Part shown: positions 5,400 through 40,254 of the stretch, in pieces
Position numbering within the stretch: the stretch's first letter is position 1
Layout of the letters: every line of letters starts with the position of its first letter
Source: a virus
Lineage: Duplodnaviria; Heunggongvirae; Uroviricota; Caudoviricetes
Virus record (IMG/VR): IMGVR_UViG_2541047843_000009
Strand: one strand, 5' to 3'
Length of the DNA stretch: 40,254 bases
Notes under the pieces: model-generated
Seen by the model: only the letters and a program-made list of their open reading frames with translations
Told to the model about the DNA's origin: nothing
The model's database searches: none
Program-made: the position numbers and the translations under genes

Positions 5400-5453
5400 T
5401 TTGCTGTCCTGTCAATTGGGTTCTGGCGCGGTATCCCGCGCCGTTCAGATATA

Positions 5454-5969: not shown

Positions 5970-5978
5970 GTTGTCCCC

Positions 5979-7293: not shown

Positions 7294-7860
7294 TCAGGGG
7301 GATTCATTGATCTTATTTGCCGGAAATTTTCTATAAATGGTAGAAACGCCTACATCAAAAATCAGTGCAATACGCTGTATTGATTCTCCGGCCTCGAGTA
7401 AACGCCCAATCTGTGCCCACTGTTCGGTGGTCAACTTAGGACGGCGTCCACCTACTCTGCCTTTGGCACGAGCTGCAGCCAGCCCTGCCCTGGTACGTTC
7501 AACTATCAGTTCGCGTTCCATTTCAGCCAGGGCACCCATGACATGAAAAAAGAAACGGCCCATTGGGGTACTGGTATCAATACTGTCAGTCAGGCTTCTG
7601 AAATTCACACCACGCTGGCGCAACTCTTCTATCAGCGTAACAAGATGCCGCATACTGCGCCCCAACCTGTCCAGCTTCCAGACAACCAGCGTGTCTCCTG
7701 CCGATAGTGTCCTGAGTAGTTTTTTCAGCCCCGGTCTGTCGGACTTAGTGCCACTGATTTTGTCCTCAAAAATCTGCTCACATCCCGCGCAGTTCAGTGC
7801 ATTACGTTGCAAATCGGTGTTCTGGTCATTTGTTGACACGCGTACATAGCCAATAAGCAT
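7294..7860 (-). CDS. Serine DNA invertase, Gin/Hin/Pin/Cin family
   Basis: N-terminal MLIGYVRVSTNDQ with the catalytic Ser, VVWKLDRLGRSM motif and C-terminal helix-turn-helix; GGGGG ribosome-binding site before the ATG at 7860. Confidence 0.9.
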   Translation of the reverse strand: MLIGYVRVSTNDQNTDLQRNALNCAGCEQIFEDKISGTKSDRPGLKKLLRTLSAGDTLVVWKLDRLGRSMRHLVTLIEELRQRGVNFRSLTDSIDTSTPMGRFFFHVMGALAEMERELIVERTRAGLAAARAKGRVGGRRPKLTTEQWAQIGRLLEAGESIQRIALIFDVGVSTIYRKFPANKINESP

Positions 7861-7928
7861 GATCATCCCCCTGAATAAAAACCGGAGATGATGCCAGTTA
7901 GCTGTTACCTCTGCATTTTCTTAAACGT

Positions 7929-7944
7929 TGGTTTAGGAGAAGGC
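7929..7944. repeat. Inversion crossover site, left inverted repeat
   Basis: ttggtttaggagaagg is the exact reverse complement of 9704-9719. Confidence 0.7.
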
Positions 7945-8343
7945 TCAGCATTGCCTGTTGGCGTACCTGTTCCGTGGCCTTCAGTCACACCGCCAACAGG
8001 CTGGCTGAAATGCAACGGTGCAGCTTTTTCTGCCGAAGAGTATCCGGAACTGGCAAAAGTTTATCCGACAAATAAATTGCCAGATTTACGCGGCGAATTC
8101 ATTCGTGGGTGGGATGATGGAAGAGGAATTGATTCAGGACGGACTCTCCTGTCTGCTCAGGACGGGAGCATTGAGGCACACGGCCATGATTACAATGGGG
8201 TCATCTATACTTCTAGCGGTCCTTCCTGGGCTAATACGACGGATGCGGGACACCGGGCATATTCGGGATTTACATCATCATATGGCGGGAGCGAAACCCG
8301 TCCACGAAATATTGCATTTAACTATATCGTGAGGGCTGCATAA
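7945..8343 (+). CDS. Silent alternative C-terminal segment of the tail fibre (expressed only after inversion)
   Basis: Ends ...RPRNIAFNYIVRAA, the receptor-binding C-terminus type of lambda Stf; has no start of its own downstream of the crossover site. Confidence 0.6.
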   Translation, partial: SALPVGVPVPWPSVTPPTGWLKCNGAAFSAEEYPELAKVYPTNKLPDLRGEFIRGWDDGRGIDSGRTLLSAQDGSIEAHGHDYNGVIYTSSGPSWANTTDAGHRAYSGFTSSYGGSETRPRNIAFNYIVRAA

Positions 8344-8945
8344 TGGATAACGCCGTATTAAATAGCGAGCTTATTGCCACGAAGGCGGGGAATATTACCG
8401 TCTATAACTATGATGGTGAGACGCGGGAATATATTTCTGCATCAACTGAATATCTTGCAGTGGGTGTCGGTATTCCAGCATATTCCTGTTTAGACGCTCC
8501 TGTTACATCTAAGGCTGGTTATACAATTTGCCGTTCTGTGGATTTAAAATCATGGGAATATGTGTCAGACCATCGCGGTGAAATCGTCTATAACACCGAA
8601 ACGGGAGATGCCAAAGAAATCACAGCACTAGGCGACTATCCCGAAAATACAACCACTATCGCCCCGTTAACGCCATACGATAAATGGGATGGTGAAAAAT
8701 GGGTGACAGATGTTGAGGCACAACACGGTGCCGCAGTAGAAGCGGCAGAAGCACAGCGCCAGTCACTGATTGATGCAGCAATGGCTTCCATCAGTCTGAT
8801 TCAACTGAAATTACAGGCCGGGCGGAAGCTGACGCAGCCAGAAAACACCCGACTTAACGCTGTGCTGGATTATATTGACGCGGTGACGGCAACAGATACC
8901 AGCACAGCGCCAGACGTCATCTGGCCTGAACTGCCGGAGGCGTAG
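8343..8945 (+). CDS. Alternative tail-fibre assembly protein (Tfa/U'-like)
   Basis: 200 aa; start overlaps the stop of the alternative fibre segment; C-terminal DTSTAPDVIWPELPEA motif. Confidence 0.75.
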   Translation: MDNAVLNSELIATKAGNITVYNYDGETREYISASTEYLAVGVGIPAYSCLDAPVTSKAGYTICRSVDLKSWEYVSDHRGEIVYNTETGDAKEITALGDYPENTTTIAPLTPYDKWDGEKWVTDVEAQHGAAVEAAEAQRQSLIDAAMASISLIQLKLQAGRKLTQPENTRLNAVLDYIDAVTATDTSTAPDVIWPELPEA

Positions 8946-9357
8946 GCCATTCAATATCTGGCGCACCGGAAGTATCGACCAGTTCCAGTGCGTCCAGATA
9001 ATCCAGCCACAAATTATATTGCGCCAGTTCCCCACCTTTCAGGCGACCAATCGCCGCTTTACCAGGCCATTGCTTACTGTTTATGTATTCGTTGACCTGA
9101 TTAATCAATTGCTGCTTTTCCAGTTCGGCTGCGGCAATTTGTTCCTCATGAGTTGGCGGTGGAATATCAATCCATGCAGGCATTCCGTCGATGACACCTC
9201 TGTATTTTCCTTCTGGTGCTTCCTTCATAAATTCGGCGGCAACAGTGTCGTCAATTTCGATTCCATCACCGGGCCATTCGCCGGATTCCTGATAAGCGAT
9301 TTTAAGCTCCACAGGGAAAAACGCATTTTTATCGGCACTGAAAATATATTTCTGCAT
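8917..9357 (-). CDS. G: Tail-fibre assembly protein (currently expressed orientation)
   Basis: 146 aa directly after H; C-terminal VDTSGAPDIEWP motif. Confidence 0.8.
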   Translation of the reverse strand: MQKYIFSADKNAFFPVELKIAYQESGEWPGDGIEIDDTVAAEFMKEAPEGKYRGVIDGMPAWIDIPPPTHEEQIAAAELEKQQLINQVNEYINSKQWPGKAAIGRLKGGELAQYNLWLDYLDALELVDTSGAPDIEWPTPPAVQAR

Positions 9358-22056: not shown

Positions 22057-23466
22057 TTACTCATCTACTCTGATTTTTTGTTTTTTATTATTTTGAGTTA
22101 AGACATTTATGGTAATAGATGTATACGGATGAAAGTCAGGAACTATACTTTTAACCTCTCCATTTTCAAGAAAATGATGTGCTATTGAAGGAAATAAATC
22201 AGGATCTACAGGATATTTAGCATTAGGATTATGATACATATTTAAACCTTCTGCCCATGTTTCTGTAATATCGCCTTCTTTCACTTCAAAACTAAATGCT
22301 GCTGGATATAATGCCTCTGGGTCATGATCATGGCAGTAACCACTCCTAAATAATCTAAGGTCACTTCTTCCAAAACCAGCCAGTTTTCCCATCCGATTAA
22401 ACTTCGATATAGTACCACTATTAGAACTAAGGACGGCCGAAATATTTTCAGACTCATCCAAGAAGAAAAAGCCTGAAGGAATTTCCTTTTTCTCAAATTG
22501 ATGCGATATAATTTTCTTAGTTGCTAAACTGTAACATCCATCTTCAGATTTAACATGCTCATAGCGAATACCATAAAGATACTGCCAAAGTGCACTATGG
22601 GACCAAATCATAGAGTTTGGTTCATGAAAATCAGCAATTGCGAAAATTAAAGGATTCCCCTTAACATGTTCTAGATCCCAGTATCGAGTTTTCTTTTTCA
22701 GTTTAGAATAGAGAGAACTTCCAAATTTAATCGGCATATAATTCTCTATTTTCTCTAGCAATTCTTCCTTACTTTTAGGTTCTGATAGCATTTCAGATGA
22801 TTGATTAATATCATTCCCTGTTGGATTAACCGTTACAGCTTCAATGCAAATAGTATTACCATACTTACGTGCCACATAATCAGGGGCATTAAACTGCCTA
22901 TCTAGCCAAAAGTGTTCCTCTCGTAAATATGCGAAAAGATATAACTCCCATAGCCGGGCATCAAAACCTGTTGTCTGAAACTGCTCTATAAAATTCCCGT
23001 CGACATCCTCAAAATGATTCATCATTTCCTTGATTATCCCTGTTGCAGGCGACCAGTTCGCGTATTTACCAAATAATGAAAAATGATGATGAAGTTTATC
23101 TGGTGTAACTATAGGTGTGAATAAATCCATTGCTTTATAAGTTTCATCACCTTGTGGAAATACTTTTACGTTTAATTTAGTATGCTTCCGCATTAATTTC
23201 TTTAGTTTTGCTCGTGCAGAATTCATTTCTGAAACACTAGTAAATAGGTCAATACATCTATATCTCCCACTTAAGTCTCTTGCTAAAACAATACCGCTAT
23301 AATCTTCATCGATTTGATCCAATAATAGTGCCCCTAGCAGGAACTCTCTCGGACTACAGTACCACTCAAACTCATAGCCTAAAAGTTCAGTATTTGGCAT
23401 TCTGGTCCAATCAACAAAAGCATTAAACCTCTCTTTACTCATTTTTTTTATATCAAGAAAAGACAT
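22057..23466 (-). CDS. Hypothetical 469-aa protein; AT-rich cargo gene, candidate anti-phage defence or abortive-infection protein of unassigned family
   Basis: Long ORF in clearly AT-rich DNA between portal and cos, convergent with Q; GAGGT about 9 nt before the ATG; no Walker A motif; no family recognised. Confidence 0.7.
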   Translation of the reverse strand: MSFLDIKKMSKERFNAFVDWTRMPNTELLGYEFEWYCSPREFLLGALLLDQIDEDYSGIVLARDLSGRYRCIDLFTSVSEMNSARAKLKKLMRKHTKLNVKVFPQGDETYKAMDLFTPIVTPDKLHHHFSLFGKYANWSPATGIIKEMMNHFEDVDGNFIEQFQTTGFDARLWELYLFAYLREEHFWLDRQFNAPDYVARKYGNTICIEAVTVNPTGNDINQSSEMLSEPKSKEELLEKIENYMPIKFGSSLYSKLKKKTRYWDLEHVKGNPLIFAIADFHEPNSMIWSHSALWQYLYGIRYEHVKSEDGCYSLATKKIISHQFEKKEIPSGFFFLDESENISAVLSSNSGTISKFNRMGKLAGFGRSDLRLFRSGYCHDHDPEALYPAAFSFEVKEGDITETWAEGLNMYHNPNAKYPVDPDLFPSIAHHFLENGEVKSIVPDFHPYTSITINVLTQNNKKQKIRVDE

Positions 23467-23583: not shown

Positions 23584-23632
23584 TGCCCGCTTTATGTAGT
23601 GGTTTTCATGCACCTGCATGATCTACGCAAAA

Positions 23633-23652
23633 GCCCGCCAGTTCTGGCGGGC
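23633..23652 (-). terminator. Candidate rho-independent terminator of the A-orf-dinI operon
   Basis: Perfect 9-bp GC-rich stem gcccgccag / ctggcgggc followed on the minus strand by TTTTGCG. Confidence 0.45.
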
Positions 23653-23787
23653 CTTAGCAAAAACGATCCTCAAACGATCATGCGATCTCATGCGGCATAG
23701 ACATGCACTACAGAGCTAACGCCTCGCAAGGGCTCGTTGTTCAACCTTGCTGACGCCAGAAGCAAGTTCAGACGCCAGCAACGTTTC

Positions 23788-24364: not shown

Positions 24365-26779
24365 TTAATACAGGTTCCGCCACTGATCATCTTCCTGCAA
24401 ACGCTGGTTCCGATAGAAGATACGCAGGCCTGCTCCTGACGGAATACTGCCTCCGCGAAGGAGTAAATCGACCTCTTTCTCGCTGCCATCAAATCCTCTG
24501 GACTTCAGCTCATACACGAGCTGCAGTCGCTGATGGTCTGTAATTCGCTGTTTGTAGTCTTTACGCCGTTTCGGTTTCACCAGGCGTAACCTTGCTGCCA
24601 GTTCCCGGCGCTCTTTTTTGCTCATACTGTGCAGGTAATCGTGCAACTCCTTGTCATCCATGCTGGTAATGTCCGTTCTGGGGTCCCCATCAGCTGATTT
24701 ATCTTTCTCCTGTTGGTTCAAATTTTCAGCAAGGGGACAGTTATTGCCACGAGTCCAAGGGGCGCAAGCGCCCTGGTCGGCTGCCGCCTCCTGAACGTCA
24801 ACGGCCTTACGAACCATTTTCCACTTCACGGCATGAGTGCAGATCTTGCCCTCTGCAATAGGTGACCAGATGCCATAAATACGAATGCCGTGATCGCCAT
24901 AGGCGGTCGGCTCTTCGTTGATTTCATAAGCAGTTCTGATAAGGTGATATTTACGGGGAACCAGTACGCCGCCCTGCTTCATGATGTAGGTGGCAAAACA
25001 ACCAGCATCAGCAGCAGCCAGGATTGCATCAAGGCGCGGGTTATCCAGTACCGGCGCACCTGCTTTTTTGTCACCCTGTTGCCTTGCCGCCTGACCAGCC
25101 AGCAATCGCAGTTCACGGTAAGCCTGACGCCCCGGAATGCCAAAGAAGCGGAATTGCTGAACACGATGCAGAGACGCCCAGGCATTCACGTATTCAGCGT
25201 TATCACGCAGGGATTTACCCGTTTCCTTGCTGATCTCGCCAGCCAGACCACGCCCGTCAATGTTCTTACTGATATATTTCGCGATGTAGCTTGTCGGCGT
25301 TCCTTTGCGCGGGTTAATCAACTCAGACTTAAAGCGCGGCCCCGTGTTATTGCCCAGCTCCTCGCGGTCTTCACGGATGGCAAACTTACGCAGTAATGCA
25401 GTGATGGCGCGGCGGTCTTTTTTGCGCATAAAACACAACAGGTGCCAGTGAACTGTACCGTCATGATGCGGCTCAGCCACCCGCACGCCATACCAGCGCA
25501 ATCCGGCTTTGTGCATCGCCTTACGAAATGCAGCAAACATGCCGACCAAATAATCACTGCTTTGTCTTACCGTCGCATTTGTCCAGTTCGGGTTGGGTCT
25601 GCCGTTATTTAGCGTGGAATGGAAACGTGACGGACAGGTGATGGTGTAGAAAACGGCGCAGTCACCGCGCATTTCCGCGATAAGTTCCAGACCTTTAACA
25701 CAGGCCATCATCTCATTGCGGCGATGCGCAGGGTTGCTGCTGCTGGCGTTTACCACATCCTCCATGTCCAGCGTGTCGCCGTCTTCGTTCACCAGTTCAT
25801 GAGAACGGAAAAACTCCAGCGACTTACGGCGCTGCTCACGTTTATGCATCACGGCTTCATAGCTGACATAAGGAGATGCTTTTTTGCTGACCAGGCAGAC
25901 AGCGCGCAACTGCTCTTCCCGCCATTCGCAACGCATCTTCCATAATTTCCGGTACCACCAGTCAGCGCACAACATACGCGCCAGCGAACCCGGAATGAGT
26001 TCATAGGGCACGGGTTTACGGCGGTTTCTTTTCCGACGGAGTTGCTCAAACGCAGGCGGGATAACATCCAGACGCAGGGTTTCCGCTGCCACCTTTTCCC
26101 ATGTCTTGCGGATTTCTTCTGGCTTAACGTCATCGGTGGCATACAAATCACCACAAGCTGCATCAAGGCACATGCTCATATGCGCAGCGACAAGGGTAGA
26201 CAGGCGCTTCACCTGATCCTGACTCATTTCAGGCAGGATAAGCAGGCCATCCAGCCCTTCATGGCTTGCCATAAAGCGAAAAGAAGCGGATAGCTGACTG
26301 TCGCGTACATGCTCCAGTCGTTCCAGACATGGCTTAATCGTCTCACGCAAATAGCGGGAATAAGCCTTTGGCCTGCCCAGGCTGCTGAAGTATTCAATAC
26401 GTTGCATCAGCGGCTTGCTGATATGGGAAGGCTGGGCATTGACGTCCGCCAGAATGACCATATCTGGATTAAAACGCTGCTGCTCATGCGCCAGCTTTGC
26501 CCGACTAATGAGCTTATCCTGCTCCATTTCGCGCTGGACAGGATCACGGGATTCATTAAAGAAATAACGCTCCCAGACCTGATCACTCAGTGCCTCGCGG
26601 CGCAGCTGTTCCTGCTCGTTATCGGCAGCGTACAGAGTGATCAGGTTTGAAAGCGCAGAAACCGGCGCAACTTCCGCCGGGTCCAGATAAGGGTTAATGG
26701 CCTTTTTCGGGCTGTTCCATGAGAACGATGCGGCAGCCTCGTTAAAGCCGCAGCAGTTGTTCATATCGGCATGGCTCAT
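24365..26779 (-). CDS. A: Replication initiation endonuclease A (rolling-circle, HUH type)
   Basis: 804 aa; [10 protein letters not shown] motif; ATGA overlap with the upstream methylase gene. Confidence 0.9.
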
Positions 26780-27633
26780 GCACGTACTCCGTACACGGCA
26801 GAACTATCCACGCCACGCGAATAATCAAATCCCACCCAGCAGCGCGGCCCGGAAACAGCAATGATTTCTGTTGCTGATTTACCCTCGCCAGCTGCCACAC
26901 CGATGCTGCGTTTTGCCTTGATGTAGTGGTGAGTAAAATTGCGATACAGCGAACGGATCAGGGATGTGTCACTGTTAGAAACAATGACCGGATGTCCTTC
27001 TGATGACCGATGTTCAAGAACAGATGCCAGGTGATACTGGTCATCTTCAGTGAAACCATCAGTGTGATAGCCGGAAAACGTACCGTCATACGGCGGATCG
27101 CAATACACCACATCCCCCGCCTTCAACATCGCCAGCGTTTCATCAAAGCTGGCGCAGATAAACGTTGCTCGCTGGGCCTTTTCTGCAAATGCGCGAATTT
27201 CTTTTTCAGGGAAATACGGATTTTTATAATTACCGTAGGGAATGTTGAAATGCCCGCTCTTGTTATAGCGACATAAACCACGGTAACCGTGACGATTGAG
27301 ATACAGGAAATATACCGCTTTCATGAAATCAGTAATTTCAGTGGAGTAATTAAACTCCTGCCTTATGTTGTAATAAGCCACCTCCCTGTTTGCGATCTCA
27401 AATAAAACTCTGGCGCGAGATATAAACGATTCACAATCAGCAGCAACCTTTTTATAGAGGTTGATTAAATCAGGATTAATATCCGCAACCAGATAGCTGG
27501 GGTAATCCGTCTCCATCATCACAGCACAGGAACCCGCGAAAGGTTCAACCAGTCGCGGGCCAGCAGGAAGGTGTTTTTTCAGTTCGGACATAATGGCGGT
27601 TTTATTTCCCGCCCATTTCAGGATGGTGCTCAT
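26776..27633 (-). CDS. DNA N6-adenine methyltransferase, Dam-like
   Basis: DPPY catalytic motif (VVYCDPPY) and N-terminal AdoMet-binding region (EPFAGSCAV); start taken at [11 protein letters not shown]. Confidence 0.85.
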
Positions 27634-27857
27634 ACAGCACCTCCGTTGTAATGTTTGCCTTTCAGCTCTGCGATTTCCTGACAGGTAATGCAAAGCTGCA
27701 CCCCCGGAATGGCACGGCGGCGTGCTGGCGGAATTGGCGCTTCACACTCAACGCAAAGCACGCGGGACACGCCCGGCGTTTTGGCACGGGCAGCACGGAT
27801 ATGACGTTGGCGTTCTTCTTCAACTCGCTGCTGTACGAGATCCATTGCATCAGCCAT
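27630..27857 (-). CDS. TraR/DksA-family C4 zinc-finger protein
   Basis: CVECEAPIP...CITCQ; 75 aa; translationally coupled to both neighbours. Confidence 0.75.
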   Translation of the reverse strand: MADAMDLVQQRVEEERQRHIRAARAKTPGVSRVLCVECEAPIPPARRRAIPGVQLCITCQEIAELKGKHYNGGAV

Positions 27858-28096
27858 CAGTGGATCTCCTGCGCTTCGTTCTGGATTGCTTCAGCAGTCA
27901 CACGCAGCAGTTCTGCCGCTTCGACGTGGTTTAGTTGGCGGGATGTGATATGACACGCCAGGCTATCAAGGCGAGCTGCCATTGCTTCAGCCCTTGCCCG
28001 GCGTTCTTCCAGACGAGCCTCTGTCAGTAAAATATTAAGCCCTGCATCATCCGGTCCGGTTTTAGTCGTGAGGGTTTCAATATTACGCATAATCAA
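27857..28096 (-). CDS. Hypothetical early-region protein (79 aa)
   Basis: ORF in operon context; stop overlaps the next start (TGATG). Confidence 0.5.
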   Translation of the reverse strand: MIMRNIETLTTKTGPDDAGLNILLTEARLEERRARAEAMAARLDSLACHITSRQLNHVEAAELLRVTAEAIQNEAQEIH

Positions 28097-28521: not shown

Positions 28522-28746
28522 CTATCGTTCTTTGTTCTTACGGTAACGCTCAAGAGGAGATACATTTTTTCGTATCGTCTCTTTAACCTGCTCTCCCCGT
28601 AAAAACGTCCCATCCTTTAACGTGAAAAAGTAACTGCCATCGCCCGACAATGACGGATAGCAACAGAGCAAATCATCTTCAGGTACTGAATAACTCTCCC
28701 CTCTGTAACGAAACTGATAAACCACTTCACTTTCTGCCGCATACAT
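28522..28746 (-). CDS. Hypothetical small acidic protein (74 aa)
   Basis: GGAG about 9 nt before the ATG; protein-like composition. Confidence 0.5.
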   Translation of the reverse strand: MYAAESEVVYQFRYRGESYSVPEDDLLCCYPSLSGDGSYFFTLKDGTFLRGEQVKETIRKNVSPLERYRKNKER

Positions 28747-28913
28747 TTGGACTTTCTCCGTTTCCTCGTGGTCAATTCAGACAGCAATTCATCTTGTGAA
28801 TGACATGGATGCCAGCGTTTTCCATTCTCACCCGTGATCCAGCCGTGACCGTAGTGCATTGCCGGACTTTGTTTTACCAGCAGCGACGCAAATGATGGTT
28901 CTTTCGTCAGCAT
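28617..28913 (-). CDS. Hypothetical ORF overlapping 28522-28746 in another frame; possible frameshifted or overlapping gene
   Basis: Start at MLTKEPSF just after cII; the N-terminal half looks protein-like, the C-terminal half is Lys/Arg-rich and overlaps the neighbouring ORF. Confidence 0.3.
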   Translation of the reverse strand: MLTKEPSFASLLVKQSPAMHYGHGWITGENGKRWHPCHSQDELLSELTTRKRRKSKCMRQKVKWFISFVTEGRVIQYLKMICSVAIRHCRAMAVTFSR

Positions 28914-29705: not shown

Positions 29706-29821
29706 AGTGCAGTATCTCTTAGTTTGGTTTCGTTTTATCTTGTTTTATGTGGTTTGGTTTTGCTTTTCAAACCATGAATGGATATTAAGATCACTTTTTA
29801 TATACGTCAAGAGGTTTGATT
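29706..29821. promoter_or_regulatory. Lysis-lysogeny switch region between the divergent apl and cI genes
   Basis: Direct repeats gtttggttt at 29722-29730 and 29752-29760 in AT-rich DNA. Confidence 0.5.
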
Positions 29822-30454
29822 ATGAGCTTAATCAAAGCGGGAAATGATAGTGGTGGGCGCGATGCAATTAACAGGCTTATTAAGGCTTACAACTTCAGCT
29901 CACGACAGCAGCTCTGCGAACATCTGGAAGTATCCAAAAGCACTATGGCTAACAGATACTTAAGGGATAGCTTTCCTGCCGAATGGGTAATTCAATGTGC
30001 CCTTGAAACAGGAGCTTCCCTTCTATGGCTGGCTACTGGTCAAGGAGATATGTATGCGTGTGAGAACGAAGAAACAAATCTCAAAAATGAACCTCCCGTC
30101 ACTGTAAGACCACTTTCTAAGATCGTTGCTCCTAGCATCAAACGTGTTGAACTGAAGAACGGCGAACTGCAGGCAAGTGATGAAATTCTTATTGATAGCA
30201 GCCTGCTCGATGGTGACTCATCCAACGCTTTATTTGTTAAAACAGCTAATAATAGCTTTGTAGTGGATACGTCCGTTAAACAAGTCAGTAATGGCTTCTG
30301 GTTAGTCGATATGGACGGAGTTAAAAGCATCGTCAAAATTGCGCGCATACCCGGAAACAAAATAGTAGTTAGCCAAGATGACACTTCATTTGAATGTTCT
30401 GTAGATGATGTGGAAGTCGTAGGACGTGCAGTCAAAGTAATCAAGAACCTCTAA
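29822..30454 (+). CDS. cI: CI immunity repressor (186 type)
   Basis: CALETGASLLWLATGQG motif as I recall in 186 CI; start taken at the ATG after GAGG (the track start is a TTG); 210 aa. Confidence 0.8.
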   Translation: MSLIKAGNDSGGRDAINRLIKAYNFSSRQQLCEHLEVSKSTMANRYLRDSFPAEWVIQCALETGASLLWLATGQGDMYACENEETNLKNEPPVTVRPLSKIVAPSIKRVELKNGELQASDEILIDSSLLDGDSSNALFVKTANNSFVVDTSVKQVSNGFWLVDMDGVKSIVKIARIPGNKIVVSQDDTSFECSVDDVEVVGRAVKVIKNL

Positions 30455-31484: not shown

Positions 31485-32153
31485 ATGAATAGCGAACTAG
31501 AGTTACTTATAAAAATATTATTCCCTTCCCTATCTGCCATTATATCCTTATTAGGGCTTAAAACAGGGTGGACTTATAAAAAAGATAAACTATTCACATC
31601 ACGTAAAAACATTAGCGAATTTTCATATCAGATGTATAAAAGCAGTGAAGATCCGACCTTCAAAAAACTGGCGGAAGATTACGGCATTGCTGCATTAACC
31701 AAAGATAACACATTGACAAAAAAACAAAGATTAATATTACTCAACACAACAAACCCCGTTAGCGATATAGATAATTATTCCAAATGTCAAAGTCTAATTT
31801 CCATTACCACCCATAAAGAAATATTCGCATGGAATAAAAAAAGATATAAATACAGCATATATAGAAAATTAATAAAAATCATAACAACTCTAATTTACTT
31901 CATGAGCAGTCTCATCGTAGCACTTCCTTTCAGTTATTCTGTTGTAGTAAGTGCTAAGATGATGGAGAAGATAAACCATCTAACTACTTGGCAATACTTT
32001 GGTTTAAGCAGCTATTTTGTGGTATCGGGAGTAGCAATATGCTTTATCTGCCTAGATAAGCTCTCCAAGATTAAGATCGCCGAGAGATTAATCGTTTCGA
32101 ATAGGCGTTTAGGCGACAAATGCAGTGGCGGCACTTTGGCGGCAGAAAGTTAA
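31485..32153 (+). CDS. Hypothetical AT-rich membrane protein (222 aa, about 3 transmembrane helices); candidate moron or superinfection-exclusion gene
   Basis: Starts 10 nt after the int stop; hydrophobic helices at the N-terminus and around residues 133-157 and 172-191; very AT-rich. Confidence 0.6.
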   Translation: MNSELELLIKILFPSLSAIISLLGLKTGWTYKKDKLFTSRKNISEFSYQMYKSSEDPTFKKLAEDYGIAALTKDNTLTKKQRLILLNTTNPVSDIDNYSKCQSLISITTHKEIFAWNKKRYKYSIYRKLIKIITTLIYFMSSLIVALPFSYSVVVSAKMMEKINHLTTWQYFGLSSYFVVSGVAICFICLDKLSKIKIAERLIVSNRRLGDKCSGGTLAAES

Positions 32154-32237
32154 AAACCCATAAAACGGACAGACACCGCATAAATCTAACCAACTGAAAA
32201 TCAAAGCAAATCATTGTTTTTACAGACATTGAAATGC

Positions 32238-32282
32238 TATGTAGGAATTTCGGACGCGGGTTCAACTCCCGCCAGCTCCACC
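32238..32282 (+). other. ssrA: 45-nt copy of the tmRNA (ssrA) 3' end; prophage att core at the prophage-host junction
   Basis: atgtaggaatttcggacgcgggttcaactcccgccagctccacca matches the ssrA 3' terminus as I recall it; the sequence upstream does not continue as ssrA, so this is a core duplicate. Confidence 0.7.
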
Positions 32283-32386
32283 AATCATGATTGGACGGTG
32301 TAAGGACAACACCAACAAAAACAGGAAGTTAGCAGTCTCAGCAGGACACCGACCAGACGGTGAGGAGACAAAAAAGGATACGCAAA

Positions 32387-32440
32387 GGAGCCGCGGCTCC
32401 CAAGTGACATGAAAGCCCGCATCTGCGGGCTTTTTCGTTT
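32387..32440 (+). terminator. Structured region: 14-nt palindrome (32387-32400) plus an intrinsic terminator hairpin and T-run (32415-32440)
   Basis: ggagccgcggctcc, then gcccgc-atct-gcgggc followed by tttttcgttt. Confidence 0.5.
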
Positions 32441-32583
32441 CATCTGCAAAAATGTCTATACATCAGCCGCCACAAACGGAGCAACAGCCTTTATTGGTGT
32501 GGGTGTTAAATTGACAAGGTACCTGCGACAGGAGATTTCTTGTTTATTTGTAATGCCACTGTTCTTTATCAGGAAGGTGATTA

Positions 32584-32853
32584 ATGGAAAATCTACTTTT
32601 TGTGATGTGTTGGATTAAAGATCATCATGTGATGTCATTAACTTTTGGCGTCTTATCTGCAATTTTATGGATTAAATCTGCTACAGCAAAAGTTGAGTTA
32701 GGCAAAAAAATTGTCATGGTTACGTATGAAGATCCCGAACTTAACGTGAATCTCCATGATTTCTTCGCCACTGCGCGGCTTCAATCTAAGTACAATTCAT
32801 TTGCAGCATTGTCTGCAGCAGCAACCGCGCTATTCCAGATTATTGGTTTGTAA
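32584..32853 (+). CDS. Hypothetical small hydrophobic protein (89 aa)
   Basis: AGGAAGGTGA ribosome-binding site; two hydrophobic segments; AT-rich. Confidence 0.45.
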   Translation: MENLLFVMCWIKDHHVMSLTFGVLSAILWIKSATAKVELGKKIVMVTYEDPELNVNLHDFFATARLQSKYNSFAALSAAATALFQIIGL

Positions 32854-32991
32854 TGCTTACCAGCCCCAAATTAATCAATACCCAGTGGTATTAGCAATGT
32901 CCGCTTCAAGTACATACATTCTTAAGACATTTGGGCACTGTCATGTCTGTCGGGGGAGTAGGTTAAAATCCTCTCGTGCAAAATTTCTTAG

Positions 32992-33354
32992 CTAGAGAAT
33001 ACAAAGAACATCATCTGGTGTTAACACAGAGTCTTCTACGTACTCAGGGTGGTTACGTAATACATCTCTCTGATGTCTCAAGATCTGCGCTGGAATTTCT
33101 TGCTCATCCACAATTTTGGCAGTATCCAGCAAAATACTGCCACACCTTATTTCCAGCAAAACAAAGCGATTCCACTCTGGACCGTTAGAACACAAAAGGT
33201 CAAACAAAACCTCACCTGTAGCCTGTGAATTGCCCAGTATAACAGAAAGCCTCTTCTCGATTTCGTGAACTGAAGTCAAGGGGTTCTCGTAGCCAGTCGC
33301 CATAACGACGGCAATGAGAGCCCCTGAGACGTTAACACCTGTTATTTCAAACAA
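32992..33354 (-). CDS. rnlB: RnlB-like antitoxin
   Basis: 120 aa; start overlaps the rnlA-like stop by 8 nt; resembles E. coli RnlB (from memory). Confidence 0.65.
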   Translation of the reverse strand: MFEITGVNVSGALIAVVMATGYENPLTSVHEIEKRLSVILGNSQATGEVLFDLLCSNGPEWNRFVLLEIRCGSILLDTAKIVDEQEIPAQILRHQRDVLRNHPEYVEDSVLTPDDVLCIL

Positions 33355-34417
33355 TATACAAATCCTTAATAATTCCCCATGCCTGTCTGGCCTTAGTCAT
33401 CAGTCGTGCCATGTCAGAAACCATACGGCTTGTGTCGACAACTATCTCCATATGGAACAGGCCATGACGTTCTCTGTTAAAGAAAGTATAGGCATCATTA
33501 ATGGTCTTAACCTTAGCTGACGATAAATTGCATCCAAATTGTTGTTTCAGAATAAATTCACTCCCAATTTTATCAAAATAAGGTCCGAAACCATCCTGCG
33601 TGATTGGCATGCCATATCGGTACATTGTTGATTTAAGTACTCCCTCAACTGAACGTAATTCAGGATACAACAACATACAGTAATCGGGTAAATCGGGGGC
33701 GGCGAGTTTAACACACAGCCCAGAAACGAGCAATTTTTCAACATTCTTATGCAATAGTGGGTACGCATCCCCCATTTCACACTCTAGATGTGAGCGAGCA
33801 ACTTCTTTCTGAACTATATACGCTTTGCCATCGTCCTGACGAATGAGAACTTTTTCCAGACCTTGTAAATCGAGTAGCTCTGACAAGTTGAATATAAACA
33901 CTCTATAACATGACAATGGACGCCCTTGTATTTGTAGTGTTCCATTTCTGTGATGCAGACTAACTGTCAACTCATCCTGAAATTCTGGCGAATGAATTTT
34001 CCACACCGTTGTATGAGTGTTCCGTAAGTATTCGTAAAATTGTATATGTGGCTGCTCTGCTGAGAGCTGAAGTACAGATAAAACGTTCGCTTCAACGAAC
34101 CCTTGTAACACCATATTTACCTGTTCAAATTCTGCAGGATTGATGGTTTCATAGAGATTATCAGCCAACTCTTTGCCAAGATTATGATTAGCTCCTGTTT
34201 GATACTGGACTGTAGACGTCCCTCCGTTATTATAGAAAATGTTAACAGTTGCCAAAGCTTCTCCTGGTTTAGCAAACACAACCCGAAGTCCTGCTCTTGT
34301 ACCAGGCATTGGTCCAATTGAATGGACGGAATAGTTTTTATTTTCAATAAATGCCCTAGACGTAGCCTCAATAGTTGTCCGATCCAAATTTAAATTAGTG
34401 TAGTTCCTGACTGTCAT
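33347..34417 (-). CDS. rnlA: RnlA-like endoribonuclease toxin (RNase LS family)
   Basis: 356 aa from MTVRNYTNLNL..., resembling the E. coli RnlA N-terminus and length (from memory); two-gene operon with the antitoxin. Confidence 0.65.
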   Translation of the reverse strand: MTVRNYTNLNLDRTTIEATSRAFIENKNYSVHSIGPMPGTRAGLRVVFAKPGEALATVNIFYNNGGTSTVQYQTGANHNLGKELADNLYETINPAEFEQVNMVLQGFVEANVLSVLQLSAEQPHIQFYEYLRNTHTTVWKIHSPEFQDELTVSLHHRNGTLQIQGRPLSCYRVFIFNLSELLDLQGLEKVLIRQDDGKAYIVQKEVARSHLECEMGDAYPLLHKNVEKLLVSGLCVKLAAPDLPDYCMLLYPELRSVEGVLKSTMYRYGMPITQDGFGPYFDKIGSEFILKQQFGCNLSSAKVKTINDAYTFFNRERHGLFHMEIVVDTSRMVSDMARLMTKARQAWGIIKDLYIV

Positions 34418-34476
34418 TTGCTTAACCCTATAAAAAACTTTAGCAAACTCTACAATATAGCCCCTCTTTAGTCTAA

Positions 34477-34760
34477 TCAGGCGCTGTATCCTGAAATCGG
34501 GTACCGATAATATCCCTCCTGCAGCCATGTGTTGGTGTTAACAAGATACTGTGTATCAATTGAATCCGTCAGACTGCAAAAGTTGATACCTCTTTCGCGC
34601 AGTTCCTCCACCAGCACGACAAGATGCCTCATACTGCGCCTCAGTCGGTCCAGTTTCCAGACCACCAGAGTGTCACCTGCCGATAATGTCCTGAGAAATT
34701 TTTTAGCCCGGGTCTTTCGGGCGTTGTAACGCTGATTTTATCTTCAAAATCAGCGCGCAT
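34477..34760 (-). pseudogene. Truncated, frameshifted Pin-type DNA invertase remnant
   Basis: MVWKLDRLRRSMRHLVVLVEELRERGINFCSLTDSIDT matches the central part of the invertase at 7294-7860; DNA similarity continues upstream out of frame; the C-terminal helix-turn-helix half is missing. Confidence 0.7.
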
Positions 34761-34817
34761 TCTTCTTAGGCCAGCAAGTTCTTATATGTGACGTGACTGT
34801 GGCTACAACAGATACGA

Positions 34818-34880
34818 TTATTCCATAACAGGGCTTGCAGGCCACTCAATATCCGGTGCAGTTGATGTATCAACACGATT
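34818..34880 (-). pseudogene. Tail-fibre assembly gene remnant (C-terminal about 20 codons only)
   Basis: ...[19 protein letters not shown] matches the C-terminal motif of the Tfa proteins at 8343-9357; upstream codons are not protein-like. Confidence 0.55.
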
Positions 34881-34953
34881 CAACAACACCCGATACTTCT
34901 TCCATGCTGAAAGCAATGATGCCGTTCCTAAGTTGCATTTACAGCCACCTTTT

Positions 34954-35250
34954 TCACCCGCGCTCAACCAACAACCAGACCAGCAGACACGCCACCACCG
35001 GCACAGCAAAATCCATCAGGCTTGCCACATCCCACGCGCGCGGATCAAAACCGCCCCACCACGGCATATTCATACGCTTGCCATGCCCGAACATTTCAAT
35101 CCAGCGATATTCTGCCTGGGTGTGCTCACGCGCAATGAAGAACGTACAACCGGCTATCGCACCGTAAGCCCACTTTCCGGTAAAAAGACCAACCAGTACC
35201 TGTGCGACCACAGCACAAAGTGCATGAAGTAAGGGACTTATATCCATCAT
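34954..35250 (-). CDS. Hypothetical small membrane protein (98 aa)
   Basis: Two hydrophobic helices; lies downstream of the lambdoid tail-fibre genes. Confidence 0.5.
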
Positions 35251-35259
35251 TTCCTCCTT

Positions 35260-35538
35260 TCAGCTCCATTCCCGAAGCGGAGTTTCCAGCTCCACGTCAT
35301 AATCCGAGAATACAGAAACATCAAACAAGTCATCAAGAATGCGAATGTTGACAAAATAACCGTCATTCCGGATACAGACAGGTTCTCCCTCTTCTGTTAC
35401 CCCTGTTTCTGTGTAGGTGAAACCAATTTCATCAACTAACAGTTTATTCTGGAGGTCTTCATCTTCCGCCCAGCCAAGAGATGACAGGAAGGCCTTAAAC
35501 TGCAGTTTGTCATGAAACTTCAAAGTTAAATCTTTCAT
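35260..35538 (-). CDS. Hypothetical acidic protein coupled to stf; possible tail-fibre chaperone
   Basis: 92 aa; start overlaps the stf stop (ATGA). Confidence 0.5.
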   Translation of the reverse strand: MKDLTLKFHDKLQFKAFLSSLGWAEDEDLQNKLLVDEIGFTYTETGVTEEGEPVCIRNDGYFVNIRILDDLFDVSVFSDYDVELETPLREWS

Positions 35539-37601
35539 ACGGCCTCTTTTAATTGCCTGTCATTTAATTCTTTATGCCATATGCGGAAATTGCGAATATG
35601 GCCAAACAGATGTCGTTCTCCAGTATTCGTCTGCCCTCCAAATCGGATATTTTTATCAGCGGTCACGCCATTATATTCACAATAAACTTCATTAACCGCT
35701 TTACCATTTGTCACCACATGAAAGTGACCATCAGCTTTTGCAATACATCCAAATGTGGTTTTCTCTGCAAATACATCTGTCGCTGCGCTATTAACATACG
35801 AGCCTGAAGGGTTTGACAGACTCATATATAACTTACCACTACCTCTGTTGATTGCTGCAATTGCTGATTGCCCGGTATTGGCTGCTGCTATATCCCACAC
35901 GCGGGGTGCGGCGTTTGGTGCAATATCCCAGTTTTTATGAATCTCAAGTAAAAAAGTAAATGGTAACTTATAAAGATTATTTCTGGTGGGGATACTAACC
36001 AAATCACTGGCTCTTGTCGTTGCGCTGCCTCCTGAAATAATAAATGATGATACACACGGCCCATTCTCTACTTGTGGGGTGGCAAGATAAATATAGTCAC
36101 CAGATACTGTTGCCCCACCCTGCTTAGGAGAATACTGTATCTGAGAGCCTATTTTTAACTCACCATCAATTGCCTGAATCGTTGCCTCTGCAAAAATCCA
36201 GCCTGTGGTCTTATCCTTCCTGACTCGTGCCGTAATTCTGCCGGAAGCACCACCTGTCATATTAATTTCAAGCGTTTGCGTATCAATGTACGCATCGCCA
36301 AGAAAAGTTGTTGCACTACCATCATACTTATCAAACCGGATACGTAACCTTACCTGTCGTTCTGTTTTAAAACGACATGAGGTTGTCACGTACTTGTTAT
36401 CGCCTGAGACATCAACTGACTTTGTTGCAGCAATTGATGCCATATTAATAGCCGAGGTTTGCCCAATCAGAGAATCGTTGCAGACAAACTTTCCATATGT
36501 AAAACCAAAACAATCCGTCCCGGTTTCGGGCACATCCATGTTTGACGACCTCCCCCAGCTGGCTGGACTTTCCGAATTGAGCATGTAGTTCGTTCTTTGC
36601 CCCTCAATAAGCAGGCCATCACACTCAAATCGCGGCTCATTAATTTCCGCCGTTTTCAGTTCGCCAGATTTGTTGATATATGTTGCCGTTGATGCGCGAC
36701 TGAAATTAACCTGTTTATCATCGGCGACCTGAACCACATCGTCACCAATGGCTATTTTTTTATAGCCCGGAGAAAACCCCGCAATCATATCCAGTGAATC
36801 GTTAAACGGTATCCACACATCAGGCAGCGGCGGCACTATATTCGCATAGGGCTCTGCAGTCACCTCCGCAGCGGCTTCTGCGCGGTCTGCCGCCTTTTCA
36901 GCTCGTGTCGCTGCTAACAGAGCCTCATCCTTTTTCTGCCCGGCCTTTGTTGCGTCTGCTGCGGCCTCCCGCGCTTTTGTGGTGGCAGTTTCAGCTGCAG
37001 TTGTCGCTGATGATGCTTCACGACGTGCTGCGTCAGCATTTTCTGCGGATTTCTCCTCTGACGCCCGGGCATTAGTCTCTGAAAGTGATGCTGATGTTGC
37101 TGCTTTTTCTGATGCTGTTTTAGAAGATGCAGCAGCTTTCGCGCTGTTACCTGCATTCGTCTCTGATGTTTTCGCCGCGTTCCTGGACGATGCCGCTGCA
37201 GTTTCGGATTTCTTTGCCGCCGCTGCGCTCTGAGAGGCGACTTCAGCGTTGCGTGCCGCCTCTTCCACCATCTTTTCAAAACGATACAGTGCCTCCGGAC
37301 GAACATCATCTTCTGTTGCAGCGCCCAGAAAATCATTCAATGTCCCCGGTTTAGAATCCTCATACACGGTAATGGTCCCGGCATGTGAAGGCGGAAAACC
37401 TTCAACCAACAGGGTGACGCTGTACTGGCCATACTCAACATCCATGCTGTAACGCCCGGCTTCATCCGGATTTTCAGAGGCCACCGTGTTCACCAGTACC
37501 GTGGTGCTGTTACGTTTTGCTTTGAGCTGAATGGTGCAGTTCTGTATCGGTTTTCCTGCACCGTCTTTCAGCACGCCTGAAATCTGTACTGCCATATTCA
37601 C
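35535..37601 (-). CDS. stf: Lambdoid side tail fibre protein
   Basis: N-terminus MAVQISGVLKDGAGKPIQNCTIQLKA... matches lambda Stf; Ala/Ser-rich low-complexity shaft; distinct C-terminal domain. Confidence 0.85.
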   Translation of the reverse strand: MNMAVQISGVLKDGAGKPIQNCTIQLKAKRNSTTVLVNTVASENPDEAGRYSMDVEYGQYSVTLLVEGFPPSHAGTITVYEDSKPGTLNDFLGAATEDDVRPEALYRFEKMVEEAARNAEVASQSAAAAKKSETAAASSRNAAKTSETNAGNSAKAAASSKTASEKAATSASLSETNARASEEKSAENADAARREASSATTAAETATTKAREAAADATKAGQKKDEALLAATRAEKAADRAEAAAEVTAEPYANIVPPLPDVWIPFNDSLDMIAGFSPGYKKIAIGDDVVQVADDKQVNFSRASTATYINKSGELKTAEINEPRFECDGLLIEGQRTNYMLNSESPASWGRSSNMDVPETGTDCFGFTYGKFVCNDSLIGQTSAINMASIAATKSVDVSGDNKYVTTSCRFKTERQVRLRIRFDKYDGSATTFLGDAYIDTQTLEINMTGGASGRITARVRKDKTTGWIFAEATIQAIDGELKIGSQIQYSPKQGGATVSGDYIYLATPQVENGPCVSSFIISGGSATTRASDLVSIPTRNNLYKLPFTFLLEIHKNWDIAPNAAPRVWDIAAANTGQSAIAAINRGSGKLYMSLSNPSGSYVNSAATDVFAEKTTFGCIAKADGHFHVVTNGKAVNEVYCEYNGVTADKNIRFGGQTNTGERHLFGHIRNFRIWHKELNDRQLKEAV

Positions 37602-37610
37602 TCCACAAAT

Positions 37611-37635
37611 AAAAAAGGCGCCATTTCTGGCGCCC
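37611..37635 (-). terminator. Hairpin with T-tract between J and stf
   Basis: ggcgcc-atttct-ggcgcc followed on the minus strand by six T. Confidence 0.5.
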
Positions 37636-37653
37636 GTATTTGGGTTATAAAAT

Positions 37654-40254
<2,601 letters not shown>

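What the first reader, a model, noticed from the sequence alone, without database searches (positions are those of the whole stretch)
26776..27857. Phage-borne Dam-like methylase translationally coupled into the replication operon
Seen in sequence: the TraR-like gene, the Dam-like methylase (DPPY motif) and replication gene A are chained by overlapping stop/start codons (TGATG at 27855-27859, ATGA at 27630-27633 and at 26776-26779). Inference: the methylase is co-expressed with replication initiation and could act as an orphan anti-restriction or regulatory methylase.
Basis: partly seen in the sequence, partly recalled or inferred. Interest (0 to 1): 0.4.

Follow-up and report, generated by a model that had tools for sequence, protein, structure and literature searches.

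The report
Prophage Dam methylase upstream of replication gene
This is an ordinary, already annotated DNA adenine (Dam-type) methylase gene in the early replication operon of a P2/186-family prophage of E. coli, found in about a quarter of complete E. coli genomes and first described in 1990 in the retron-Ec67 prophage.

Summary
On the minus strand, a DUF2732 gene, a TraR/DksA zinc-finger gene, a 285-aa Dam gene (26776-27633) and replication gene A (24365-26779) are joined by TGATG, ATGA and ATGA.

The methylase belongs to the Dam family:
- 46% identical to E. coli Dam.
- DPPY is present.
- Six of seven listed GATC-contact residues are kept.
- dN/dS is 0.06-0.13.

None of this is new. The same 2.2 kb lies in 1247 of 5426 complete E. 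coli genomes with the same annotation. The exact protein is in NCBI. Its 90% cluster includes a protein named "retron EC67 DNA adenine methylase".

Tight joining to gene A is a property of gene A, not of Dam. P2, 186 and relatives join A equally tightly to unrelated upstream genes. The phage 186 record says A needs upstream translation.

The operon appears to be the repressor-controlled lytic operon, so a role in lysogens is unlikely.

One modest new point: gpA clades in which most members carry Dam keep GATC (observed/expected about 0.8). The Dam-less P2 and 186 clades avoid it (0.25-0.35). This holds only between clades.

Interest is low.

The parts
26776..27633 (-). Dam-family orphan DNA adenine methylase gene, 285 aa, ATG at 27633 and TGA at 26776-26778
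   Evidence: PF02086 E 1e-76. TIGR00571 scores 322 bits against a cutoff of 115. E 2e-73 to E. coli Dam structures 2G1P/4GOL. Best PADLOC model is oMTase, E 3e-111. The identical protein is NCBI EJN6477520.1. dN/dS is 0.13 against Fels-2 and 0.06 against KP12.
27088..27099 (-). Catalytic DPPY motif (residues 179-182), coded GATCCGCCGTAT
   Evidence: Invariant in alignment A1. Present in all 132 Dam copies found in related loci.
27526..27540 (-). AdoMet-binding motif I in the variant form FAGSC (E. coli Dam has FVGAG)
   Evidence: The same form occurs in nearly all phage copies.
27630..27857 (-). TraR/DksA C4 zinc-finger gene, 75 aa (P2 Orf82-like)
   Evidence: PF01258 E 4e-11. TIGR02419 scores 67 bits against a cutoff of 59.7. 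phrog_54.
27857..28090 (-). DUF2732 gene (P2 Orf80 / 186 Orf79-like). Its TGA overlaps the TraR ATG by one base.
   Evidence: PF10809 E 3e-29. Homologues are annotated at 234 nt.
24365..26779 (-). Replication gene A, 804 aa, rolling-circle initiator. The putative nick site at the origin lies near 24757, placed by alignment with the P2 and 186 ori positions.
   Evidence: PF05840 E 4e-128. Ori mapping.
26776..26779 (-). ATGA junction: Dam stop and A start
   Evidence: The same 4-nt overlap occurs in 53 of 65 Dam-carrying loci of this clade.
27630..27633 (-). ATGA junction: TraR stop and Dam start
27855..27859 (-). TGATG junction: DUF2732 stop and TraR start
26777..26797 (-). Predicted RNA hairpin that pairs the A start codon with the last codons of Dam
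   Evidence: z -2.9 for the 101-nt stretch. Pairing probability of the AUG is 0.99. It is not an outlier among the prophage's genes.
27621..27644 (-). Predicted RNA hairpin that pairs the Dam Shine-Dalgarno GGAGG with Dam codons 2-5
   Evidence: z -2.9.
29782..29810 (-). pR-like promoter (TTGACG, 17-nt spacer, TAATAT) between the cI-like and apl-like genes. Presumed start of the early lytic transcript that carries Dam and A.
   Evidence: Position matches pR of phage 186.

Best explanation
The gene encodes a GATC-specific Dam-type methylase carried as cargo in the variable slot just upstream of replication gene A, in the early lytic operon of a 186/Fels-2-like P2-family prophage of E. coli.

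It is transcribed from the repressor-controlled early promoter. It is therefore made when the phage replicates, not in the quiescent lysogen.

The overlapping stop and start codons, with start regions folded into small hairpins, tie translation of A to translation of whatever gene lies upstream. Here that gene is Dam, so methylase and replication initiator appear together.

The most likely benefit is that the phage's own Dam methylates the burst of rolling-circle replicated DNA, which host Dam cannot keep up with. Progeny DNA would then not be left unmethylated at GATC. Unmethylated GATC is exposed to MutH and to GATC-cutting restriction enzymes in the next host.

Shown here: gene identity, operon layout, junctions, conservation, and the clade-level GATC contrast.

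Inferred: enzyme activity, timing of expression, dependence of A on Dam translation, and the protective role.
For: Identity:
- Dam family by three profile libraries and by solved structures.
- In alignment A1, E. coli Dam residues K9, Y119, L122, R124, P134 and Y138 are kept as K6, Y117, L120, R122, P132 and Y136. DPPY is kept.
- The roles of these residues in reading GATC are described in PMC4417163.
- Purifying selection: dN/dS 0.06-0.13.
- The DPPY motif is present in all 132 copies found in related loci. One further locus, L038, has a frameshifted Dam.
- A member of the same 90% cluster is named retron EC67 DNA adenine methylase. Hsu et al. 1990 described that Dam, as cited in PMC7826664.

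Timing:
- The gene order int, cI, then apl-like, cII, Fil, DUF5347, DUF2732, TraR, Dam, A on the opposite strand matches the CI-repressed pR operon of phage 186.
- A pR-like site is the only promoter match on this strand.

Coupling:
- The 186 record states that translation to the end of orf84 appears necessary for translation of A.
- A is overlapped or abutted by unrelated upstream genes across four gpA clades.
- The A start codon or its Shine-Dalgarno is predicted to be paired in the window and in 186, Fels-2, SEN8 and P2.

Benefit:
- In 306 IMG/VR loci, GATC observed/expected is 0.25 in the P2 clade and 0.35 in the 186 clade. Both lack Dam.
- It is 0.81 and 0.85 in the two clades where most members carry Dam.
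- In gene A alone the values are 0.03 and 0.31 against 0.88 and 0.90.
- These phages all occur in E. coli or close relatives.
- GATC avoidance in enterobacterial phages, poor methylation of phage DNA and MutH damage are documented in PMC5014478, which cites McClelland 1984 and Deschavanne and Radman 1991.
Against: - No enzyme assay was possible, and I could not read the 1990 paper.
- Motif I lacks the second glycine (FAGSC), and the intercalating N120 is replaced by R118. Both changes are conserved in the clade, so they are probably tolerated.
- The GATC contrast rests on only four clades. Within the two clades where most members carry Dam, members without Dam are not significantly poorer in GATC (0.77 against 0.81, p 0.11; 0.83 against 0.85, p 0.47). 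The association could be phylogenetic inertia or have another cause.
- The host already has Dam, so the phage copy may be redundant in the usual host.
- Pairing of the A start region is not unusual compared with other genes of the same prophage.
- No GATC lies at the predicted nick site.
Confidence: 0.6

Rival explanations
1. Epigenetic or regulatory methylase acting in the lysogen. The prophage Dam would add to or replace host Dam methylation and so change host or prophage gene expression.
For: - Dam methylation does regulate prophage genes and excision in Salmonella, including the related phage SopE-phi (PMC7380047).
- A conserved cluster of three GATC sites lies at 23665-23687, next to a terminator upstream of the PD-T7-1 gene.
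Against: - The gene appears to sit deep in the lytic operon, behind a CI-controlled promoter. No promoter-like site lies nearer on its strand.
- The host's own Dam already methylates GATC.
- The documented effects are attributed to host Dam.
Confidence: 0.1
2. Pure anti-restriction cargo. The methylase exists only to pre-methylate progeny DNA against GATC-cutting restriction systems (DpnII/MboI type) in future hosts, with no link to replication or mismatch repair.
For: - Phage orphan methylases expressed on exit are a recognised anti-restriction strategy (PMC12707154).
- GATC is under-represented in every phage whose host encodes an enzyme that cuts methylated GATC (Type IIM; PMC6286503).
- The gene is an orphan.
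Against: - Enterobacterial hosts are already Dam-positive, so progeny would be largely methylated anyway.
- Methylated GATC makes DNA a target for DpnI-type enzymes.
- This reading overlaps with the best explanation and cannot be separated from it by sequence.
Confidence: 0.2
3. Neutral or selfish passenger. The slot upstream of A accepts any gene that preserves translational read-in to A, and Dam is simply one of several interchangeable fillers with little benefit to the phage.
For: The slot holds unrelated genes in different phages:
- P2 has DUF5405 Orf83.
- 186 has an exonuclease-like gene, DUF5405 and a PAPS-reductase-like gene.
- L078 has a 136-aa ORF.
- Several relatives have an empty slot with TraR directly against A.

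The 186 record calls the slot genes 'not essential'.
Against: - Strong purifying selection: dN/dS 0.06-0.13.
- The DPPY motif is kept in all 132 detected copies across two gpA clades.
- More than 4000 sequences fall in one 90% cluster.
- The clade-level GATC contrast.
Confidence: 0.1

Closest known systems
Dam methylase of the retron-Ec67 prophage (Hsu, Inouye and Inouye, PNAS 1990; the element is a 186-related prophage according to Dodd and Egan 1996)
   Same: It is carried by a 186-related E. coli prophage. A member of the window protein's 90%-identity cluster, also 285 aa, is named 'retron EC67 DNA adenine methylase'. The element and its Dam gene are described in PMC7826664 and PMC6868368.
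   Different: This window has no retron. The hotspot between the DinI-like gene and the portal gene holds a PD-T7-1 defence gene instead. I could not read the 1990 paper, so its activity data are not cited.
Fels-2 STM2730 and the Dam genes of SopE-phi, SEN8, RE2010, Cartapus and Klebsiella phages 4LV2017 and KP12
   Same: The position is the same, between the DksA-like gene and gene A, with an overlapping junction. Protein identity is 73% (Fels-2, SEN8, SopE-phi) to 99% (KP12).
   Different: In Fels-2 and SEN8 the junction is a 10-nt overlap as annotated, or a GTGA overlap. SEN8 also has an exonuclease gene in the slot.
Escherichia coli Dam (structures 2G1P, 4GOL)
   Same: Same fold family, DPPY, and the K9, Y119, L122, R124, P134 and Y138 equivalents.
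   Different: - Only 46% identical.
- Below the NCBIfam equivalog cutoff (288 against 441 bits).
- N120 becomes R.
- Motif I is FAGSC.
- Five residues after DPPY are deleted.
- It has a different 25-residue C-terminal tail.
- It is phage-borne and expressed from the lytic operon.
orf84 to A translational coupling in coliphage 186
   Same: An ATGA overlap between gene A and the gene upstream, with the A start codon predicted to lie in a stem.
   Different: The upstream gene in 186 is a PAPS-reductase-like protein, not a methylase. The dependence on upstream translation is recorded for 186 and was not tested for this phage.
Other phage Dam enzymes: P1 Dmt, T4 Dam, HP1 Dam, VT-2/933W Dam
   Same: They are GATC methylases made during lytic growth. 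P1 needs methylated pac sites. HP1 carries its Dam in the same early operon as rep.
   Different: - P1 is 36% identical and T4 is 23% identical.
- The HP1 enzyme is a different, shorter family and lies downstream of rep.
- This phage packages from cos, so no pac-type requirement is expected.

Membership tests
Dam family (D12 class, alpha-type N6-adenine DNA methyltransferase, GATC-specific) | Full-length match to the D12-class and dam profiles above curated cutoffs | tested here: met
   PF02086 scores 258 bits against a cutoff of 22, covering profile positions 1-253 of 253. TIGR00571 scores 322 bits against a cutoff of 115.
Dam family (D12 class, alpha-type N6-adenine DNA methyltransferase, GATC-specific) | Catalytic DPPY motif | tested here: met
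   D179-Y182, invariant in A1. Present in all 132 related phage copies.
Dam family (D12 class, alpha-type N6-adenine DNA methyltransferase, GATC-specific) | AdoMet-binding motif I, FxGxG | tested here: inconclusive
   The motif reads FAGSC. The second glycine is a cysteine. This form is conserved throughout the phage clade, which suggests it works, but that was not shown.
Dam family (D12 class, alpha-type N6-adenine DNA methyltransferase, GATC-specific) | Residues of E. coli Dam that read GATC (K9, Y119, N120, L122, R124, P134, Y138, as listed in PMC4417163) | tested here: met
   Six of seven are kept: K6, Y117, L120, R122, P132 and Y136. N120 is replaced by R118.
Dam family (D12 class, alpha-type N6-adenine DNA methyltransferase, GATC-specific) | Methylation of GATC adenine shown by enzyme assay or methylome | not testable with these tools
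   This needs expression in a dam-negative host followed by DpnI/MboI digestion or SMRT/nanopore calling.
Housekeeping E. coli Dam orthologue (NCBIfam equivalog NF008152) | Score above the equivalog cutoff | tested here: not met
   288 bits against a cutoff of 441. It is a phage paralogue, not the chromosomal dam.
Type II restriction-modification system | A cognate restriction endonuclease gene next to the methylase | tested here: not met
   The neighbours are a TraR/DksA gene and gene A. The best PADLOC model is orphan methyltransferase.
P2/186-family (Peduoviridae) early lytic operon | gpA replication initiator with DksA-like (Orf82) and DUF2732 (Orf80) genes upstream on the same strand, facing a divergent cI and int | tested here: met
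   Pfam assignments. Gene order matches 186, Fels-2 and P2 records. The identical prophage is annotated in E. coli MSB1_4I.
P2/186-family (Peduoviridae) early lytic operon | Transcription from a repressor-controlled early promoter (pR/Pe), silent in the lysogen | tested here: inconclusive
   A promoter-like site lies at 29782-29810 in the right place. Repression by CI is inferred from the 186 record.
Translationally coupled gene pair (termination-reinitiation type) | Stop and start codons overlap by 4 or 1 nt on the same strand | tested here: met
   Three consecutive junctions.
Translationally coupled gene pair (termination-reinitiation type) | Downstream start region masked by RNA structure involving the upstream coding sequence | tested here: inconclusive
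   Hairpins are predicted at the A start and at the Dam Shine-Dalgarno. The degree of pairing is within the range of other genes of the prophage.
Translationally coupled gene pair (termination-reinitiation type) | Downstream translation depends on upstream translation | not testable with these tools
   This is recorded only for 186 orf84 and A, in the annotation of NC_001317.

The most novel reading that the evidence does not exclude
Carrying a Dam gene tied to the replication initiator is what frees a whole lineage of P2-family phages from the GATC avoidance shown by P2 and 186. In gene A, GATC observed/expected is 0.03 (P2 clade) and 0.31 (186 clade), against about 0.9 in the clades where most members carry Dam. 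On this reading the phage methylase is a counter-measure to MutH or to GATC-directed attack on under-methylated rolling-circle DNA. The two strategies, purging the site or bringing the methylase, would be alternatives within one phage family in one host species.
Probability: 0.3. Interest if true: 0.4.

Novelty: already known. Interest (0 to 1): 0.12.

Why it matters
The finding matters little as it stands. The gene, its neighbours and the overlapping junctions are annotated in more than a thousand complete E. coli genomes and dozens of phage records.

Two points could be useful.

First, the tight joining to gene A belongs to gene A and its variable upstream slot. Any cargo placed there, methylase or not, is produced together with the replication initiator.

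Second, the clade-level contrast in GATC content offers a cheap natural test of an old idea. The idea is that enterobacterial phages either avoid GATC or must methylate it themselves. P2, 186 and the Dam-carrying relatives share a host and a replication mechanism, so they would be a clean system for testing it. [quoted passage not shown]

Tried and rejected
- GATC depletion in the window. There are 119 sites against 136 expected from shuffles, which is not significant. With a trinucleotide-based model the prophage part has observed/expected 0.75.
- A link between GATC and the origin. I mapped the putative nick site to about 24757 by alignment with P2 and 186. No GATC lies at it. The nearest are 85 and 135 nt away.
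- RNA masking of start sites as a distinctive feature. The A start codon has pairing probability 0.99, but three other genes of the prophage reach 0.97 or more. Overall pairing of the start region ranks sixth of 30, so I treat this only as consistent with coupling.
- A within-clade test of Dam against GATC content. The differences were not significant (p 0.11 and 0.47). Dam-less members mostly have TraR directly against A.
- An internal promoter for Dam. None was found by the consensus scan.
- Literature. Hsu et al. 1990 (PMC55184) and Murphy et al. 2013 (PMC3837797) are not held. A search for STM2730 gave one unrelated paper. A search for 186 translational coupling found no primary paper.
- My first dN/dS run was wrong because of an unnoticed one-residue gap. 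I redid it with a codon alignment.
- I did not run structure prediction. Solved E. coli Dam structures at 46% identity make it unnecessary.
Full report
**Observation.** The stretch was read directly and re-checked with a script. All three junctions are on the minus strand:
- 27855-27859 reads TGATG. The TGA of a DUF2732 gene shares its A with the ATG of the TraR-like gene.
- 27630-27633 reads ATGA. This is the TraR stop and the Dam start.
- 26776-26779 reads ATGA. This is the Dam stop and the gene A start.

The chain therefore links four genes, not three. Dam runs from the ATG at 27633 to the TGA at 26776-26778, giving 285 aa. The longer mechanical ORF from a TTG at 27693 is not used in any annotated relative. 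Each start has its own Shine-Dalgarno sequence: AGGAG, GGAGG and GGAG. DPPY is at residues 179-182, window 27088-27099.

**What the genes are.**
- Pfam assigns the four proteins to DUF2732, the DksA/TraR C4 zinc finger, the D12-class N6-adenine methyltransferase (E 1e-76, full profile) and phage gpA (E 4e-128).
- NCBIfam places the methylase in the dam subfamily, at 322 bits against a cutoff of 115. It scores below the E. coli Dam equivalog cutoff, at 288 against 441 bits. It is therefore a Dam paralogue, not the chromosomal gene.
- It matches solved E. coli Dam structures at E 2e-73 and is 46% identical to E. coli Dam.
- PMC4417163 describes how E. coli Dam reads GATC. R124 contacts the fourth-pair guanine. 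Y119 intercalates. L122 and P134 contact the inner pairs. K9 and Y138 read the first pair. N120 hydrogen-bonds to a base.
- An alignment with E. coli Dam and 12 phage or prophage homologues (A1) shows K6, Y117, L120, R122, P132, Y136 and DPPY at the matching positions.
- Three features differ from E. coli Dam and are conserved in the phage clade. N120 becomes R118. Motif I reads FAGSC instead of FVGAG. Five residues after DPPY are missing.
- No endonuclease gene is adjacent, and the best PADLOC model is 'orphan methyltransferase'.
- The gene is under purifying selection. dN/dS is 0.13 against Fels-2 and 0.06 against KP12.
- All 132 copies detected in related viral loci keep DPPY. One further locus, L038, carries a frameshifted copy.

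**Where it is.** The window is an E. coli prophage of the P2 family, of the 186/Fels-2 type.
- Rightward-reading genes are a CI-like repressor (29816-30454) and an integrase.
- Leftward-reading genes are an Apl/Cox-like gene, CII, Fil, DUF5347, DUF2732, TraR, Dam and A. A DinI-like gene, a defence gene and the head and tail genes follow.
- The 2.2-kb segment 26300-28500 is 100% identical in several complete E. coli genomes. It occurs in 1247 of 5426 of them. In the records listed, the genes under the match are annotated as DNA adenine methylase, replication endonuclease, and DUF5347, DUF2732 and TraR/DksA family proteins. In MSB1_4I the annotated coordinates show the same overlaps.
- It is 97-98% identical in Klebsiella phages 4LV2017 and KP12 and in an E. 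coli phage.
- The exact protein is in NCBI. Its 90% cluster has 4038 members, one of them named 'retron EC67 DNA adenine methylase'.
- The retron-Ec67 element, later recognised as a 186-related prophage, was reported in 1990 to encode a Dam methylase (Hsu et al., cited in PMC7826664 and PMC6868368).
- PMC7826664 lists a Klebsiella prophage with the same gene sizes and the same overlaps.
- The arrangement is therefore already known and very common.

**The coupling belongs to gene A, not to the methylase.**
- The curated phage 186 record says of the gene just upstream of A (orf84, PAPS-reductase-like): 'translation to end of orf84 appears necessary for translation of A protein'. It also marks a terminator inside A that is expected to act if A is not translated.
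- 186 joins orf84 to A by ATGA.
- P2 overlaps Orf83 and A by 11 nt.
- Fels-2 and SEN8 overlap Dam and A by 10 nt as annotated, or by GTGA. ESSI-2 uses ATGA.
- The slot between the DksA-like gene and A holds different cargo in different phages. P2 has DUF5405. 186 has an exonuclease-like gene, DUF5405 and orf84. SEN8 has an exonuclease gene and Dam. Fels-2 and this window have Dam alone.
- I analysed 306 viral loci around gpA from four gpA clades. A possible A start overlaps or abuts the upstream ORF in nearly all of them. This is an 11-nt overlap in 73 of 75 P2-clade loci, and a 4-nt overlap in 53 plus a 1-nt overlap in 8 of 65 Dam-carrying loci of this clade. The start was chosen by a heuristic, so these counts are approximate.
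- RNA folding places the A start codon in a stem formed with the last codons of Dam. It places the Dam Shine-Dalgarno in a stem with Dam codons 2-5. Both stretches have z about -2.9.
- The A start codon or its Shine-Dalgarno is also predicted to be paired in 186, Fels-2, SEN8 and P2.
- This fits coupling but is not distinctive. Several other genes of the same prophage are equally paired.

**Timing.** The only promoter-like site on this strand between 23.4 and 30.5 kb is at 29782-29810. It lies between the repressor gene and the apl-like gene, where 186 has pR, which CI represses. By inference, Dam is made in lytic growth and not in the resting lysogen. The proposed test on uninduced lysogens would also be uninformative.

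**What it is for.**
- Reviews state that many phages carry Dam homologues, that orphan methylases are often expressed on exit to protect exported DNA, and that P1 needs Dam methylation at pac (PMC12707154).
- The role of phage Dam enzymes is still described as not well understood (PMC7556043).
- I looked for a signal in the sequences. The window itself is not depleted in GATC. No GATC lies at the predicted origin nick site near 24757.
- The GATC content of relatives differs sharply between clades. I used expected counts from GAT, ATC and AT frequencies. Median observed/expected values are in the table.

| gpA clade | Dam in locus | Loci | GATC obs/exp, whole locus | GATC obs/exp, gene A only |
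|---|---|---|---|---|
| P2 | no | 75 | 0.25 | 0.03 |
| 186 | no | 76 | 0.35 | 0.31 |
| This window's clade | yes | 65 | 0.81 | 0.88 |
| This window's clade | no | 10 | 0.77 | 0.94 |
| ESSI-2 | yes | 66 | 0.85 | 0.90 |
| ESSI-2 | no | 14 | 0.83 | 0.89 |

- GATC avoidance in enterobacterial phages is an old observation. So are inefficient methylation of phage DNA and damage by MutH at unmethylated GATC (PMC5014478, citing McClelland 1984 and Deschavanne and Radman 1991).
- The contrast suggests two alternatives within one phage family: purge GATC, or carry a methylase made together with the rolling-circle initiator.
- The caveat is serious. There are only four clades. Inside the two clades where most members carry Dam, the members that lack Dam are not significantly poorer in GATC (p 0.11 and 0.47). 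Most of these have TraR directly against A.
- I give the protective role about even odds. I give the causal link to GATC content about 0.3.

**Comparison and verdict.**
- The closest known items are the retron-Ec67 prophage Dam, Fels-2 STM2730 and its relatives in Salmonella, Klebsiella and E. coli phages, E. coli Dam for the enzyme, and the orf84-A coupling of phage 186 for the junction.
- Membership in the Dam family is met on profile scores, DPPY and six of seven listed base-contact residues. Motif I is a variant. Enzyme activity could not be tested.
- It is not a restriction-modification system, and it is not the housekeeping dam orthologue.
The feature is already known, and interest is low.

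Noticed in passing
window 22057-23466 (-): A 469-aa protein annotated 'hypothetical' in RefSeq matches the PADLOC model for the PD-T7-1 anti-phage defence protein over its full length (E 1e-196). It sits between the DinI-like gene and the portal gene. Retrons Ec67 and Ec86 sit next to cos in related prophages.
   Followed up: partly
window 23620-23687: Four GATC sites lie within 68 bp, three of them within 24 bp (GATCGCATGATCGTTTGAGGATCG on the minus strand). They lie just before a strong terminator-like hairpin (GGCCCGCCAGAACTGGCGGGCTTTT), downstream of the DinI-like gene and upstream of the PD-T7-1 gene. The triple cluster is conserved in Klebsiella phage KP12 and E. coli MSB1_4I. Its function is unknown.
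   Followed up: partly
window 32201-40254: The right flank is part of a different, lambdoid prophage, with an RnlA toxin, a tail fibre and the gpJ tip protein. It is strongly depleted in GATC, with 6 sites against 29 expected. The P2-family prophage next to it is not.
   Followed up: partly
window 28522-28746 (-) and 28617-28913 (-): Two overlapping ORFs in different frames both have family support. The annotated Fil gene matches PF10893 (E 7e-23). An unannotated 74-aa ORF matches phrog_4312 end to end (E 4e-53). One of the two calls may be spurious, or both may be real.
   Followed up: no
window 7294-9357: A resolvase-type DNA invertase gene (7294-7866) lies next to oppositely oriented tail-collar and tail-fibre-assembly genes (7888-8945 and 8917-9357). 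This looks like an invertible host-range segment.
   Followed up: no
proteins P0008, P0009, P0094, P0059, P0063: Database proteins fuse most of this Dam (72-90% of its length, 90-100% identical) to a phage gpD tail domain (PF05954) or to a gpA domain (PF05840). They may be prophage deletion remnants, frameshifts or assembly errors.
   Followed up: no
window 31485-32153 (+): A 222-aa ORF with predicted hydrophobic stretches lies just after the integrase gene, at the prophage edge. It has no Pfam, NCBIfam or PADLOC match. It is annotated as hypothetical in the identical prophage of MSB1_4I.
   Followed up: no
L006 (Yersinia phage vB_YenM_42.18) 3501-4280: tblastn finds a 54%-identical Dam-like stretch that is not annotated as a gene. 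It overlaps small hypothetical CDSs and the annotated start of an unusually long gpA (4144-6921). This may be a decayed or mis-annotated Dam.
   Followed up: no
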